A DNA stretch of 64,000 nt. Source: a virus (taxonomy: Duplodnaviria; Caudoviricetes). Below the pieces are notes generated by a model that had not been told where the DNA came from, did not search any database, and saw only the letters and a list, made by a program, of their open reading frames with translations. Positions 45,866 to 51,819 of this stretch are shown here, in pieces. The translations under genes and the position numbers were made by a program. The stretch is from IMG/VR virus record IMGVR_UViG_3300049182_000044, positions 32,001 to 96,000 of that record; one strand, given 5' to 3'. Position 1 is the first letter of the stretch. Each line of letters starts with the position of its first letter.

Positions 45866-46144
45866 ATGCTTTCGGTGCACCTGAAACGATTTTATCGGTT
45901 CATCCTTAAAGAGACCGAGGACACAACTTCTCATGTCAATTCGGCTTGCACGGCCATCTGTGAGCCGAAGTGGCTGGCGGTCGATAAGAATGGCAAGTGC
46001 TATGCCTTCTCAGTCAAGCCTATTCTCGAAGGTAATTTCTGGATGAACCAGGACAAGAACAAAGTTTTCGTGATGACGATGCCTCAGGGTACCGATTACG
46101 ATTACTCCCAATCACTTCACGAAATAGGAAGAAGAATAGCGTGA
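45866..46144 (+). CDS. Hypothetical protein
   Basis: 92 aa; WLAVDKNG..YAFS.KP phage-type motif. Confidence 0.6.
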   Translation: MLSVHLKRFYRFILKETEDTTSHVNSACTAICEPKWLAVDKNGKCYAFSVKPILEGNFWMNQDKNKVFVMTMPQGTDYDYSQSLHEIGRRIA

Positions 46145-46596
46145 CGCTCCTCGAACAAATCAAAGCAGATCAACTGCAGGCGCGCAAAGACCGGCTGACG
46201 TTGAAAGCAACCCTGCTCACCACGTTGATCGGTGAAGCGGTAATGAAAGGCAAAAACGACGGCAACCGTGAATCGACGGATGACGAAGTGGTCGAGGTCG
46301 TCAAGAAGTTCATCAAGAACATCAACGATACGATCAAGTTTCTGACTGAAGGCGGCGCCACAGAAACTGACGAACGGCTCATTACTGTAAAGAACGAGCG
46401 TCAGATACTCGAAGCGTACCTGCCACAGCAGTTGACAGAAGACCAAATCGTCGGCTTCCTGAAAGCTTCGGGTCTGCAAACGGCTGGTATCAACAAAGGC
46501 ATTTGCATGAAGTACCTGAAAGAGAACTTCGCCGGTCGTTATGACGGCAAGGTCGCCTCTGCAGCCGTTGACCGTTTCATCAGTACCGGTCAGTAA
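46141..46596 (+). CDS. GatB/YqeY-domain protein
   Basis: LLEQIKAD...ARK...TDDEV..VVKK...E..ILEAYLPQQLTEDQI...MKYLK....GRYDGK. Confidence 0.85.
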   Translation: MTLLEQIKADQLQARKDRLTLKATLLTTLIGEAVMKGKNDGNRESTDDEVVEVVKKFIKNINDTIKFLTEGGATETDERLITVKNERQILEAYLPQQLTEDQIVGFLKASGLQTAGINKGICMKYLKENFAGRYDGKVASAAVDRFISTGQ

Positions 46597-47747: not shown

Positions 47748-47823
47748 GGGGCGTTAACTCAGTTGGTAGAGTAGCGGACTCTTAATCCGTTTGTCGTAAG
47801 TTCGATCCTTACACGCCCTACCA
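47748..47823 (+). tRNA. tRNA-Lys(CTT)
   Basis: 76-nt cloverleaf, gcgga-ct-CTT-aa-tccgt, TTCGATC loop, encoded CCA. Confidence 0.95.
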
Positions 47824-47881
47824 AAGTTTCCATAGTAGTGCAGATGCGCGAAAGCGAGTTCTTACTTCTGCATTACTCACC

Positions 47882-47957
47882 GGGTCGTTAGCTCAGTCGG
47901 TAGAGCAGCGGACTTTTAATCCGTTGGTCGCGTGTTCGAGTCACGCACGGCCTACCA
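47882..47957 (+). tRNA. tRNA-Lys(TTT)
   Basis: 76-nt cloverleaf, gcgga-ct-TTT-aa-tccgt, encoded CCA. Confidence 0.95.
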
Positions 47958-47979
47958 AGTTTGTCGTAGTAAAGAGTTG

Positions 47980-48101
47980 TAACTGCCATGTGGGTGGGTA
48001 CCTGCATGTTGTCGTAAGAATGGCCAAAAAGCCGGACCTCAATTTGTGCGAGTCGAAAGGCTCTCACCAGTGTAGACAGTCCTTACAGGGGATCGCAGTT
48101 A
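47980..48101 (+). ncRNA. Structured inter-tRNA element
   Basis: taactgc/gcagtta closing stem; gagtc-GAAA-ggctc hairpin at 48050-48063. Confidence 0.35.
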
Positions 48102-48111
48102 GCTGTTACGT

Positions 48112-48187
48112 GGGGCGTTAGCTCAGTTGGGAGAGCAGCGAACTTTTAATCCGTTGGTCGCTGGTTCAAACCCAGCACGCCCTACCA
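48112..48187 (+). tRNA. tRNA-Lys(TTT), variant with A30.C40 anticodon-stem mismatch
   Basis: 76-nt cloverleaf, gcgaa-ct-TTT-aa-tccgt, TTCAAAC loop, encoded CCA. Confidence 0.9.
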
Positions 48188-48205: not shown

Positions 48206-48409
48206 ATGTCCAATGAGTACAAGATTGCAACCTACAGCTTCGCTGTAGCAGAAGCAGTACGCGTGGTCTTCAATCACGAAAAGATTCCGTTTGAAAGCGC
48301 AGTCGGTGCGGGTTCGGTGATCGTCATCCTTGTACCCATGGAGCATAAGGCTACCGCACAGAACGTGCTACGTCAATGGAAGTCCGCCATAGCGCAGATT
48401 CAGATTTAA
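48206..48409 (+). CDS. Small hypothetical protein
   Basis: 67 aa within RNA island. Confidence 0.6.
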   Translation: MSNEYKIATYSFAVAEAVRVVFNHEKIPFESAVGAGSVIVILVPMEHKATAQNVLRQWKSAIAQIQI

Positions 48410-48410
48410 C

Positions 48411-48539
48411 GCGGGTATCGTCGAAGGTATGGCTATCGTAGTAAAGGCGTACAGTCATGTGCGTCTACATGGGGCAACTTAACAGTTGCAGCTACGACGT
48501 TCCCATGTTTCGTGAGTTCAAGTCTCACTACCCGCACCA
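48411..48539 (+). ncRNA. tRNA-like RNA, Leu-type acceptor, 129 nt, non-canonical anticodon/variable region
   Basis: gcgggta/tacccgc-A-CCA; gtgag-ttcaagt-ctcac T arm; gtc/ggc D arm; extra stems acatggg/cccatgt and gcaact/agttgc. Confidence 0.8.
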
Positions 48540-48561
48540 CTCCCTTATAAGAGAAAAAGAA

Positions 48562-48651
48562 ATGGGAATCAAAGGCTACGTGATTGCCTGTGCAATCGCT
48601 TCATTGCTCGTCGCCGTGATCGCCACATCTAATTTGTTGACGATGCAGTAA
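48562..48651 (+). CDS. 29-aa membrane peptide
   Basis: MGIKGYVIACAIASLLVAVIATSNLLTMQ, single hydrophobic helix. Confidence 0.4.
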   Translation: MGIKGYVIACAIASLLVAVIATSNLLTMQ

Positions 48652-48905: not shown

Positions 48906-48994
48906 ACGTTCTGCGAGAGATCAATACACAGTGAGTTCGGAGGTGCGGCGGGAACCATGCCTCGGAGCGGACAACAGTCTGTGCAGCAGAACGT
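48906..48994 (+). ncRNA. Unknown RNA motif, copy 1
   Basis: acgttctgc/gcagaacgt closing stem around GAGAG..TACACAGTGAGTTCGG..CGGACAACAGTCTGTGCAGC. Confidence 0.7.
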
Positions 48995-49333: not shown

Positions 49334-49506
49334 GGCGGGGTATGCATATTGGAGTAGCTGCGATTGACCGAACCGTGGAGTCCTAGGGTCGGTGAGGTCG
49401 TCGTGGTCGAGTTGGGAACAAGCACTTTGGGAGGTCGGGTAACGTGCTCGATTGAACATTGTGACTCCGACTCGGCGTGAAAGTTCGATCCTTTCCCCTG
49501 CTGCCA
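49334..49506 (+). ncRNA. tRNA-like RNA, 173 nt, G73 discriminator, large insertion in place of the anticodon/variable arms
   Basis: ggcgggg/ccctgct-G-CCA; gaaag-ttcgatc-ctttc T arm; tgca/tgcg D stem with GG in loop. Confidence 0.8.
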
Positions 49507-49587: not shown

Positions 49588-49675
49588 CGGGGCGAGGGAG
49601 TAAGAACGTGTTGACTGTGATGCGCTATGCTAAATGGTCAATAAGGTGCAGGTTGAAACCCTGTCGGCCCGACCA
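49588..49675 (+). ncRNA. tRNA-like RNA, Pro-type acceptor (C1-G72, A73), 88 nt, 21-nt anticodon loop
   Basis: cggggcg/cggcccg-A-CCA; gcagg-ttgaaac-cctgt T arm; ttgac/gtcaa stem; no D stem. Confidence 0.7.
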
Positions 49676-51181: not shown

Positions 51182-51189
51182 TACAGAAT

Positions 51190-51545
51190 TTATGGTTGTG
51201 TGCGTAGCGTAATCTACGCGAGACGTTTGCGTGAAGGCATGGCGGACGGGAGTTCGATTCTCCCCACCTCCACCACCAGCACTTTGAACACCCGGTGATG
51301 GCCGGGAGTTTGACCATGTAGGGTAACGGCCCCATAGCAGCCGCTACAGGACCAGTTGCGATACAACTGCAAAGCGCTGTTGATGGGGGTGACCTGGTTT
51401 CGACGGCGTGAGATAGCAAGAACTACAACTCAGCAGGCGATCGCTGACTCTTCGGAGTGAATCGAAGCAAAAATAGTAAATGCAAACGACTCGCATTTCC
51501 TGCAAGCTGCAAACGCCTAATTAAGCGTTTCACTTCAGGCTAAGT
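51190..51545 (+). ncRNA. ssrA: Circularly permuted (two-piece) tmRNA; outer ends approximate
   Basis: Acceptor piece ending GGGAG-TTCGATT-CTCCC-CACCTCC-A-CCA (51275) lies upstream of GGGGGTGACCTGGTTTCGAC (51385); G3.U70 pair; tag ANDSHFLQAANA* at 51482-51520 with H5 hairpin. Confidence 0.9.
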
Positions 51546-51686
51546 GACTACGGGGTCTGTTGACATAGCGCTACGGCGCGCCGTCTTCGTGTACGTAGTT
51601 AGTCCGGCCACTCCACCTTTCGCCGATAATGACGCGACTGCGCGTGGGTGTCTTAGTCAGCGCGTAAGCGCACCGAAGCCGGACTA
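51546..51686 (+). ncRNA. Structured RNA domains downstream of the tmRNA tag
   Basis: gactacg/cgtagtt and tagtccggc/gccggacta stems. Confidence 0.5.
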
Positions 51687-51698
51687 CCCAGTTTCAAA

Positions 51699-51819
51699 CC
51701 TCCAAGGTCAGAGAGCACTACACAGTGAGTTCGGTCTAAACTTTAACCATTTAGTCACCGAGAGACGATTTCCGTTATAGCAATCTGGATCGGACAACAG
51801 CCTGTGCAGCCAAAGGAGG
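51699..51819 (+). ncRNA. Unknown RNA motif, copy 2
   Basis: cctcc/ggagg closing stem around GAGAG..TACACAGTGAGTTCGG..CGGACAACAGCCTGTGCAGC. Confidence 0.7.

What the first reader, a model, noticed from the sequence alone, without database searches (positions are those of the whole stretch)
48411..48539. Leu-type tRNA shell with rebuilt interior (129 nt)
Perfect acceptor stem, A73, CCA, T arm and Leu-like D arm, but a 12-nt linker, an arm ggcgtaca-gtca-tgtgcgtc without a 7-nt anticodon loop, and a ~42-nt branched variable arm; tcgtag/ctacga could form a pseudoknot. Known: bacterial LeuRS largely ignores the anticodon. Inference: chargeable but non-decoding RNA (aminoacyl donor, decoy or sponge).
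Basis: partly seen in the sequence, partly recalled or inferred. Interest (0 to 1): 0.78.

Follow-up and report, generated by a model that had tools for sequence, protein, structure and literature searches.

The report
Anticodon-less leucine-tRNA look-alike in jumbo phage
A giant soil phage carries a 129-base gene that keeps the outer frame of a leucine tRNA but has a tightly folded module where the codon-reading part should be; it is a real RNA gene of an old but still unexplained kind, and its job is unknown.

Summary
Window 48411-48539 (+) has a perfect 7-bp acceptor stem, A73-CCA, a perfect T arm with a consensus T loop, and a short D arm carrying U8, A14, A15, G18, G19. This frame occurs 5 times in the window against 0.01 per shuffle. 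The same acceptor and T-arm sequence occurs in a normal tRNA-Leu(GAG) from a metagenome. The interior is not a decoding arm. It holds three perfect helices (9, 7 and 6 bp; z = -3.8) plus a 6-bp pairing between the two largest unpaired segments (P about 0.01), which gives a pseudoknot or a switch.

It sits in a 281-kb phage (IMG/VR, soil), in an RNA island with three tRNA-Lys genes, a second such shell and a two-piece tmRNA.

No ortholog, RNA read or population variant could be found, so covariation, expression and charging remain untested. ARAGORN's 'tRNA-Cys with a 45-nt intron' reading is unlikely: A73, no phage RNA ligase, and the 'intron' pairs with the variable region.

Best reading: a tRNA-Leu-derived, non-decoding tRNA mimic, cut out by tRNA-processing enzymes. 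It resembles phage T5 RNA1/RNA2 and T4 rnaC. Earlier notes of this scan report similar Leu-type shells in other phages; I did not verify those. Leucylation is possible but not assured.

The parts
48411..48417 (+). Acceptor stem, 5' strand (GCGGGUA); G+1 is the expected RNase P cleavage site, 1 nt after the stop codon of the upstream ORF
   Evidence: 7/7 Watson-Crick pairs with 48529-48535, pair probability 0.86-1.0
48418..48433 (+). U8, C9 and the D arm GUCG-AAGGUA-UGGC (carries A14, A15, G18, G19, U20, A20a)
   Evidence: ARAGORN -i drawing. The arm adds -2.1 kcal/mol to model A, but its pair probability is only about 0.1.
48436..48441 (+). S1 5' strand (UCGUAG), in the position of an anticodon stem; pairs with 48492-48497
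   Evidence: 6 Watson-Crick pairs, P=0.009 by shuffling the two segments; mutually exclusive with H2 in any nested fold
48445..48466 (+). H1: 9-bp hairpin (2 G-U pairs) with GUCA tetraloop, in the position of the anticodon arm; no 7-nt loop possible
   Evidence: pair probabilities 0.92-1.0
48467..48473 (+). H2 5' strand (ACAUGGG); pairs with 48502-48508
   Evidence: 7/7 Watson-Crick pairs, probability 0.65-0.76; P=0.025 in the insert-versus-variable-region test
48474..48489 (+). H3: 6-bp hairpin GCAACU-UAAC-AGUUGC, stacked on H2
   Evidence: pair probabilities 0.83-0.99
48492..48497 (+). S1 3' strand (CUACGA), inside the 12-nt bulge of the H2/H3 arm
48502..48508 (+). H2 3' strand (CCCAUGU)
48512..48528 (+). 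T arm GUGAG-UUCAAGU-CUCAC (U54 U55 C56 A58 and G53-C61 all present)
48529..48539 (+). Acceptor 3' strand UACCCGC, discriminator A73, encoded CCA
47748..48187 (+). Context: three tRNA-Lys genes (CUU, UUU, UUU) on the same strand, upstream
48206..48409 (+). Context: 67-aa ORF ending 1 nt before the element; no homolog found
48562..48651 (+). Context: possible 29-aa hydrophobic ORF starting 23 nt after the CCA; not tested
   Evidence: read from sequence
49334..49506 (+). Context: second anticodon-less tRNA shell (173 nt; G1-U72, G73, CCA) with two long arms in the anticodon and variable positions

Best explanation
This is a gene for a non-decoding tRNA look-alike derived from a class II tRNA-Leu.

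Inferred: it is transcribed together with the neighbouring tRNA-Lys genes and small ORFs. The host's RNase P cuts at G48411. This also creates the 3' end of the upstream 67-aa ORF message. The 3' end is trimmed back to the encoded CCA at 48539.

Shown from sequence: the upper half (12-bp acceptor/T stack and the D/T elbow) is intact. It should therefore fold, be processed and be stabilised like a tRNA. The decoding half has been replaced by a 78-nt module of three perfect helices (H1, H2, H3). A fourth pairing (S1) knots the module or lets it switch between two folds, and it cannot read a codon.

Inferred and unproven: the product is a stable small RNA. The tRNA frame serves as a processing and stability handle. 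The interior, or the charged or uncharged CCA end, occupies some host or phage tRNA-binding protein.
For: - The shell is far beyond chance: 5 hits in the window against 0.01 per shuffle.
- All six forward T-arm+CCA pattern hits in the 281-kb genome fall in this one island.
- The acceptor, T arm and ACCA are identical to those of a normal tRNA-Leu(GAG) (L124:416-502). The interior cannot be aligned to it. Decay would not spare 35 of 35 shell bases.
- 20 of the 25 columns invariant in 25 tRNA-Leu genes are kept (my count against A1). Two of the five lost are the anticodon-loop positions.
- The interior alone folds at z = -3.76, with 0 of 200 shuffles as good. H1, H2 and H3 have no mismatch.
- S1 has P = 0.009.
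- Same strand and tight packing with three tRNA-Lys genes, a second shell and a tmRNA.
- Precedent: the T5 record annotates RNA1 and RNA2 as 'tRNA-like stable RNA with unknown functions', and the T4 record annotates rnaC as a small stable RNA. T5 RNA1 reads as a Leu(UAA)-type gene with about 40 nt inserted in the anticodon loop.
- A bacterial genome (Thalassobaculum litoreum, L023:4246-4360) has a 115-nt Leu shell with the same acceptor and T arm and a 9+11-bp hairpin in place of the anticodon arm.
Against: - No ortholog exists in any searched collection, so there is no covariation and no proof of selection.
- The D arm is weak: 2 G-U pairs and low pair probability.
- Relatives of the phage at about 43% DNA polymerase identity carry no such RNAs, so the element is young or dispensable.
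- Perfect hairpins can also arise from recent palindromic insertions rather than from selection.
Confidence: 0.58

Rival explanations
1. It is a relic. A former phage tRNA-Leu gene had its anticodon and variable arms destroyed by insertions or slippage. It is now neutral DNA, or at most a leftover RNase P site.
For: It is a singleton with no homolog. Phage relatives lack it. The D arm has drifted: G9 to C, a shortened loop, U48 to C (my count against A1). Jumbo phages tolerate spare DNA. The Thalassobaculum look-alike is unique within its order and could itself be a tRNA-Leu gene broken by a palindrome.
Against: All 12 shell base pairs, the T loop, A73 and CCA are intact, while the interior differs in both sequence and length. 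The interior is more structured than all 200 shuffles. Two non-nested helices each have P of 0.01-0.03. A second anticodon-less shell lies 800 nt away, which is hard to explain by independent decay.
Confidence: 0.2
2. One reading: the RNA is charged with leucine by host LeuRS and acts through its aminoacylated or CCA end. It could be a decoy for acceptor-end-directed tRNA toxins, a sponge for LeuRS or EF-Tu, or a leucine donor.
For: A73, C2-G71, U8, A14, A15, G18G19, A20a and the U54/U55/C56/A58 T loop are all present. According to PMC9976931, E. coli tRNA-Leu identity rests on A73 and the D/T elbow, not on the anticodon or variable arm, and truncated tRNA-Leu lacking both arms is still charged. 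The neighbouring three tRNA-Lys genes and the tmRNA suggest an island concerned with translation under attack (inference).
Against: The same review lists the A15-U48 pair and the placement of G18G19 as essential. Here position 48 reads C, the D loop lacks two nucleotides and G9 is C. The phage encodes no LeuRS-type synthetase. There is no evidence of any partner protein. The host LeuRS is unknown.
Confidence: 0.12
3. It is an interrupted working tRNA. On this reading the insert is removed and the product decodes.
For: ARAGORN -i call. With S1 as the anticodon stem, the residual loop UUGCAGC has U33 and a purine at position 37. Other phages do carry tRNA genes with 40-80-nt inserts in the anticodon loop (Lak megaphage 'enigmatic introns', PMC6784885).
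Against: A73 is a Leu determinant, whereas tRNA-Cys uses U73 (established knowledge), so the product would put Leu at Cys codons. The insert lies at 31/32 rather than in the loop. It lacks the stem-plus-ACCA ends of the tRNA-shaped inserts seen. It pairs 7/7 with the 'variable region', which has no hairpin of its own. It is far too short for a group I intron. The phage has no RtcB, Rnl1-type or Rnl2-type ligase (the Rnl1 search had no positive control).
Confidence: 0.06

Closest known systems
Phage T5 RNA1 and RNA2 (misc_RNA in NC_005859: 'tRNA-like stable RNA with unknown functions')
   Same: They lie inside a phage tRNA gene cluster, interleaved with small ORFs. They have a tRNA acceptor/T-arm frame of 125-144 nt and an interior that cannot decode. 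RNA1 has a Leu-type D arm (GGAAUUGGUAGA), and its loop reads C + about 40 nt + UUAAAA.
   Different: No sequence similarity in the interior. T5 RNA1 has a U1-U72 mismatch and no encoded CCA. T5 RNA2 carries a second T-arm-like hairpin inside. Neither has the S1/H2 non-nested pairing. The Leu model R1 does not find RNA1 at E<=0.01.
Phage T4 rnaC (species 1 RNA) and rnaD (species 2 RNA)
   Same: Small stable RNAs encoded at the end of the tRNA cluster, function unknown for decades. rnaC ends in a T-arm-like hairpin, CCGGG-UUCGAAU-CCCGG.
   Different: No perfect acceptor with encoded CCA, no Leu-type features, unrelated sequence.
Minimal tRNA-Leu substrates lacking the anticodon and variable arms (Larkin et al. 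2002, as summarised in PMC9976931)
   Same: Acceptor, T arm, D/T elbow and A73 are retained and the decoding parts are dispensable. This is the basis for thinking the RNA could be leucylated.
   Different: Those are engineered E. coli molecules with the native D loop and Levitt pair. Here the D loop is shortened and position 48 is C.
tRNA-shaped inserts ('enigmatic introns') in phage tRNA genes (Devoto et al. 2019, PMC6784885)
   Same: Over-long phage tRNA genes that default tRNA finders miss. I saw several in IMG/VR contigs while searching for homologs.
   Different: Those inserts lie in the anticodon loop of an otherwise normal tRNA. They start with a stem and end in ACCA, and they share the motif GGGGCAGYACC. 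This element has no internal ACCA, no residual normal anticodon arm and no such motif.
tmRNA tRNA-like domain; mascRNA and plant mitochondrial t-elements; engineered tRNA scaffolds (own knowledge)
   Same: A tRNA top half is used as a processing and stability handle while the anticodon side carries something else.
   Different: No G3-U70, no tag reading frame and no SmpB in the phage. The others are eukaryotic or synthetic.

Membership tests
Canonical decoding tRNA (Rfam RF00005; class II tRNA-Leu) | 7-bp acceptor stem, discriminator, CCA; 5-bp T stem with UUCRANY loop | tested here: met
   sequence identical to tRNA-Leu(GAG) L124:416-502 over the acceptor, T arm and ACCA
Canonical decoding tRNA (Rfam RF00005; class II tRNA-Leu) | 5-bp anticodon stem closing a 7-nt loop with U33 and an anticodon | tested here: not met
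   H1 is 9 bp with a 4-nt loop, and opening it gives loops of 6, 8 or 10 nt, never 7. ARAGORN default makes no call. A 7-nt loop appears only if 45 nt are deleted.
Canonical decoding tRNA (Rfam RF00005; class II tRNA-Leu) | Scores as tRNA with covariance models | tested here: not met
   No RF00005 hit at E<=10. The Leu model R1 gives a partial 21-bit hit at 48488-48539, against 81-85 bits for real tRNA-Leu and 45 bits for the Thalassobaculum shell.
Substrate of bacterial LeuRS (leucine identity set, PMC9976931) | A73; C2-G71; U8:A14; G18G19 pairing with U55 C56; U54:A58 | tested here: met
   All present in the sequence. Presence of the bases only; the tertiary fold was not tested.
Substrate of bacterial LeuRS (leucine identity set, PMC9976931) | A15-U48 Levitt pair and native placement of G18G19/A20a in the D loop | tested here: inconclusive
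   A15 and GGUA are present. The base before the T stem is C (48511) with U at 48509-48510, and the D loop lacks positions 16-17.
Substrate of bacterial LeuRS (leucine identity set, PMC9976931) | Actual aminoacylation | not testable with these tools
   Needs an in vitro charging assay or an acid-urea Northern blot
Phage tRNA-cluster tRNA-like stable RNAs (T5 RNA1/RNA2, T4 rnaC) | Encoded within a phage tRNA cluster, tRNA-like frame, non-decoding interior | tested here: met
Phage tRNA-cluster tRNA-like stable RNAs (T5 RNA1/RNA2, T4 rnaC) | Accumulates as a discrete stable RNA in infected cells | not testable with these tools
   No RNA run listed for this DNA
Phage tRNA-cluster tRNA-like stable RNAs (T5 RNA1/RNA2, T4 rnaC) | Sequence homology to a described member | tested here: not met
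   No blastn hit in 50,697 phage records. The interiors are unrelated by eye. The 'kind' is a functional class, not a homologous family.
tRNA with tRNA-shaped insert ('enigmatic intron') | Insert within the anticodon loop, bounded by a stem and ending in NCCA, flanked by a normal anticodon stem and loop halves | tested here: not met
   No internal ACCA, and the ends of the candidate insert do not pair. Compare L003, L006 and L007.
tmRNA | G3-U70, tag reading frame, SmpB partner | tested here: not met
   G3-C70. ARAGORN and Rfam find the phage's tmRNA elsewhere, at 51183-51611. No SmpB in the phage.

The most novel reading that the evidence does not exclude
The RNA is leucylated, or at least presents a genuine tRNA CCA end, without ever entering the ribosome. 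It works as a phage counter-defence decoy that soaks up host toxins or enzymes acting on the acceptor end or elbow of tRNAs. It would be one component of a 4-kb 'translation protection' RNA island, alongside spare tRNA-Lys genes and a phage tmRNA. The S1/H2 alternative pairing would act as a switch that hides or exposes the module.
Probability: 0.1. Interest if true: 0.8.

Novelty: new member of a known kind. Interest (0 to 1): 0.45.

Why it matters
Small tRNA-shaped stable RNAs have been known in the tRNA clusters of phages T4 and T5 since the 1970s-80s, and nobody knows what they do. This element is a particularly clean example. It has a flawless tRNA-Leu frame, an encoded CCA, a compact and well-folded interior, and a second shell, spare tRNA-Lys genes and a tmRNA next door.

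If such RNAs are charged or bind tRNA-handling proteins, they would be a new layer of phage interference with host translation or with tRNA-directed defence. If they are only RNase P handles, they show that phages use tRNA punctuation to cut polycistronic RNA, as mitochondria do.

On its own, without relatives or expression data, this copy does not settle either question.

Tried and rejected
Searches for homologs of the element, all negative:
- blastn of the element against 50,697 phage records: no match.
- Exact and degenerate pattern scans of IMG/VR: the 5' 22-mer; a Leu acceptor with a long interior (this found only a different class plus adjacency artefacts); T arm + ACCA (mostly ordinary tRNAs); the H1 and H3 motifs (chance hits in unrelated contexts).
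- The last IMG/VR scan was mis-specified by one N and is void.

Searches for relatives through flanking genes:
- The Dda-like helicase gave none in IMG/VR, and its best phage record is an unrelated 40-kb podovirus.
- The 250-aa and 67-aa ORFs found only themselves among 5.8 billion clusters.
- DNA polymerase relatives at 42-45% identity (the Erwinia Yoloswag / Dickeya AD1 group and two IMG/VR contigs) carry no tRNAs or shells.

Searches with the shell sequence:
- The exact 3' 24-mer gave one hit in genome contigs (the Thalassobaculum shell) and one in metagenome contigs (a normal tRNA-Leu).
- A long-Leu-shell pattern in 401 alphaproteobacterial genomes gave only artefacts apart from Thalassobaculum.
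- The Thalassobaculum element was not found in 62 other genomes of its order.
- ORFs near the Thalassobaculum and L124 loci have no similarity to the phage.

Sequencing runs:
- One DNA run, probably the source, holds the stretch.
- No RNA holder was listed.
- Laying that run's contigs showed no variants and no joints.

Rfam at E<=10: nothing for the element on its own strand.

PHROGs and Pfam on neighbouring ORFs: nothing except a YqeY/GatB-like protein upstream.

Ideas considered and dropped:
- A Y RNA-like RNA (YrlA): no Ro/TROVE gene, and the ends are tRNA ends rather than a Ro-binding stem.
- An att-site remnant: both tRNA halves are present.
- A protein-coding reading: the 64-codon open frame 48457-48651 is not longer than chance allows.
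- The 11-mer ATCGTAGTAAAG shared with 47963: chance level for a 4.4-kb region.

Full report
**What the window is.** The window is bases 32001-96000 of a 281,566-bp IMG/VR virus record that CheckV rates as complete. Its only sequencing-run holder is a soil metagenome. The DNA polymerase is about 44% identical to those of the Erwinia phage Yoloswag / Dickeya phage AD1 group of 260-kb jumbo phages. G+C is 51%, and the RNA island does not differ from the rest of the genome.

**The observation.**
- Acceptor GCGGGUA/UACCCGC, 7 of 7 pairs, followed by A73 and an encoded CCA.
- T arm GUGAG-UUCAAGU-CUCAC.
- A short D arm GUCG-AAGGUA-UGGC.
- An 11-nt linker.
- H1, a 9-bp hairpin with a GUCA loop.
- A 42-nt arm made of a 7-bp helix (H2) stacked on a 6-bp hairpin with a UAAC loop (H3), with a 12-nt bulge.

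RNAfold recovers the acceptor, T arm, H1, H2 and H3 at high probability (MFE -48.4 kcal/mol, z = -3.8). The 78-nt interior folded alone has z = -3.76, and none of 200 dinucleotide shuffles folds as well.

A descriptor (5-bp T stem, UUCRANY loop, 7-bp acceptor, NCCA) hits five places in 64 kb: the three tRNA-Lys genes, this element and 49334-49506. It hits 0.01 places per shuffled window. Across the whole phage genome, all six forward hits of a T-arm+CCA pattern lie in this island. The shell is therefore not chance.

**It is derived from tRNA-Leu.** The 24-nt 3' part (T loop, T stem, acceptor, ACCA) is rare.
- It has one exact match among one genome each of 185,579 prokaryotic species and one among 241 million metagenome records.
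- The metagenome match is an ordinary 87-nt tRNA-Leu(GAG) with the same 5' acceptor strand.
- Alphaproteobacterial tRNA-Leu(UAG) genes have the same GCGGGYR acceptor type.
- Against an alignment of 25 class II tRNA-Leu genes, the element keeps 20 of the 25 invariant columns. It loses G9, the A before the 3' D strand, U48 and the two anticodon-loop positions.

**It does not decode.**
- H1 can only give loops of even length, so a 7-nt anticodon loop is impossible there.
- Default ARAGORN and Rfam's tRNA model do not call the element, even at E<=10.
- A Leu covariance model built here scores real tRNA-Leu at 81-85 bits but gives this element only a partial 21-bit hit over its last 52 nt.

**The 'tRNA-Cys with an intron' reading is unlikely.** With introns allowed, ARAGORN proposes tRNA-Cys(GCA) with a 45-nt insert after position 31. 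It uses UCGUA/UACGA as the anticodon stem. I consider this unlikely for these reasons.
- The discriminator is A, not the U73 of tRNA-Cys.
- The insert is not in the loop.
- The insert has none of the features of the tRNA-shaped inserts that I found in other phages.
- The 'variable region' left behind has no hairpin of its own but pairs 7 of 7 with the supposed intron (P = 0.025).
- The phage has no RtcB, Rnl2-type or Rnl1-type RNA ligase. The Rnl1 search had no positive control.

**The long-range pairing.** In the minimum-energy fold the two largest unpaired stretches are the linker (48434-48444) and the bulge (48490-48501). They are complementary over six Watson-Crick pairs, UCGUAG/CUACGA, with P = 0.009 by shuffling. 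This helix (S1) lies exactly where an anticodon stem would be.

S1 and H2 cannot both form in a nested structure. The nested alternatives are close in energy: -46.7 kcal/mol with H2 and -43.2 with S1. A two-state switch fits equally well, and neither is proven.

**Context.** The element lies on the same strand as three tRNA-Lys genes (CUU, UUU, UUU; 47748-48187). It follows a 67-aa ORF whose stop codon ends 1 nt before G+1. A possible 29-aa hydrophobic ORF starts 23 nt after the CCA.

A second anticodon-less shell of 173 nt lies at 49334-49506, with long arms in both the anticodon and variable positions. A circularly permuted tmRNA lies at 51183-51611. A YqeY/GatB-like tRNA-binding-domain protein is encoded just upstream.

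The phage lacks SmpB, a CCA-adding enzyme, a LeuRS-type synthetase and Ro. Any processing or charging would therefore have to be done by the host.

**Comparative evidence is missing.**
- The flanking ORFs have no homolog other than themselves.
- The nearest phage relatives have no tRNAs or shells.
- No phage record, IMG/VR contig or earlier window of this scan holds a look-alike.
- The source run shows no variants, and no RNA run is listed.

Covariation, expression and charging therefore remain open.

**One related object.** Thalassobaculum litoreum carries a 115-nt gene with the same acceptor and T arm and a normal Leu D arm. In place of the anticodon arm it has a 9+11-bp hairpin. It scores 45 bits with the Leu model. 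It was not found in 62 other genomes of its order. Its first stem pairs share the G-U, C-G, G-C, U-G block with H1 of the phage element. This hints at common descent but does not demonstrate it.

**Comparison with what is known.** The T5 genome record annotates RNA1 (144 nt) and RNA2 (125 nt) as 'tRNA-like stable RNA with unknown functions' within its tRNA cluster. RNA1 reads as a Leu(UAA)-type gene with about 40 nt inserted after C32. T4 annotates rnaC and rnaD as small stable RNAs at the end of its tRNA cluster, and rnaC ends in a T-arm-like hairpin.

The present element belongs to this functional kind but is not homologous to any member. Earlier notes of this scan describe many further 'anticodon-less tRNA-Leu look-alikes' in unrelated phages. 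I could not verify those here. They are consistent with what I saw, and they lower the claim to uniqueness.

**Can it be charged?** According to the identity review PMC9976931, E. coli LeuRS relies on A73 and the D/T elbow and ignores the anticodon and variable arm. Truncated tRNA-Leu lacking both arms is still leucylated. The element has A73, C2-G71, U8, A14, A15, G18G19, A20a and a consensus T loop.

The same review lists A15-U48 and the placement of G18G19 as essential. Here position 48 reads C, and the D loop lacks two nucleotides. Leucylation is therefore possible but not assured.

**Verdict.** This is a real, tRNA-Leu-derived, non-decoding tRNA look-alike. It is most likely excised by tRNA-processing enzymes and stable. 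Its function is unknown. It is a new member of an old and unexplained kind.

My approximate odds:

| Reading | Odds |
|---|---|
| Functional tRNA-like RNA, role unknown | 0.58 |
| Relic | 0.20 |
| Charged decoy or donor | 0.12 |
| Interrupted decoding tRNA | 0.06 |

Noticed in passing
L007:10802-10934(-), L007:8376-8498(-), L006:1815-1950(+), L013:3967-4102(+), L003:2870-3008(+), L003:3330-3481(+): Unrelated IMG/VR phages carry tRNA genes (Leu-UAA, Glu and others) whose anticodon loops hold 47-77-nt inserts. Each insert starts with a stem and ends in ACCA. The inserts share AGUG and a hairpin loop GGCAGYA with covarying stems. The 77-nt insert in L003 has its own T arm and acceptor. They match the 'enigmatic introns' of Lak megaphages (PMC6784885).
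   Followed up: partly
L023:4246-4360(-) (Thalassobaculum litoreum DSM 18839): A 115-nt tRNA-Leu shell in a bacterial chromosome, with the anticodon arm replaced by a 9+11-bp hairpin. ARAGORN misses it. The blast-hit loci of this genome hold tRNA-Leu GAG, CAG, UAG and CAA but no UAA, so it may occupy the tRNA-Leu(UAA) slot. It was not found in 62 other genomes of its order.
   Followed up: partly
window 49334-49506 and 49588-49675: Two more tRNA-like shells. The first (173 nt; G1-U72, G73, CCA) passes the shell descriptor and has two long arms in the anticodon and variable positions. The second (88 nt) is weaker: one acceptor mismatch and a UUGAAAC T loop.
   Followed up: partly
window 51183-51611: A circularly permuted (two-piece) tmRNA with tag ANDSHFLQAANA, encoded by the phage. 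No SmpB gene was found in the 281-kb genome.
   Followed up: partly
window 48916-48987 and 51710-51810: Two blocks (25 nt and 24 nt, each 92% identical) recur 2.8 kb apart in ORF-poor sequence. They look like two copies of an unknown structured RNA motif. Rfam found nothing there.
   Followed up: no
window 47748-48187: Three tRNA-Lys genes (one CUU, two UUU) are the only canonical tRNAs in the whole phage. Host tRNA-Lys is the target of known anticodon-nuclease defences (own knowledge), so these may be replacement tRNAs.
   Followed up: no
window 46141-46596: A free-standing YqeY/GatB-like protein (phrog_1460, E = 2e-39) is encoded just upstream of the RNA island. In GatB this domain contacts tRNA (own knowledge).
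   Followed up: no
L022:2502-2645(-) (phage T5 RNA1): T5 RNA1 reads as a tRNA-Leu(UAA)-type gene. It has a Leu D arm, an ACUGC/GCGGU anticodon stem, and a loop of C + 40 nt + UUAAAA. It also has a U1-U72 mismatch and no CCA.
   Followed up: partly
G000:C1:113863-114173 (outside the window): ARAGORN with introns also calls a 'tRNA-Met with a 221-nt intron'. Its stems are mostly G-U pairs and it lies in repetitive, coding-like sequence. It is almost certainly a false positive.
   Followed up: partly
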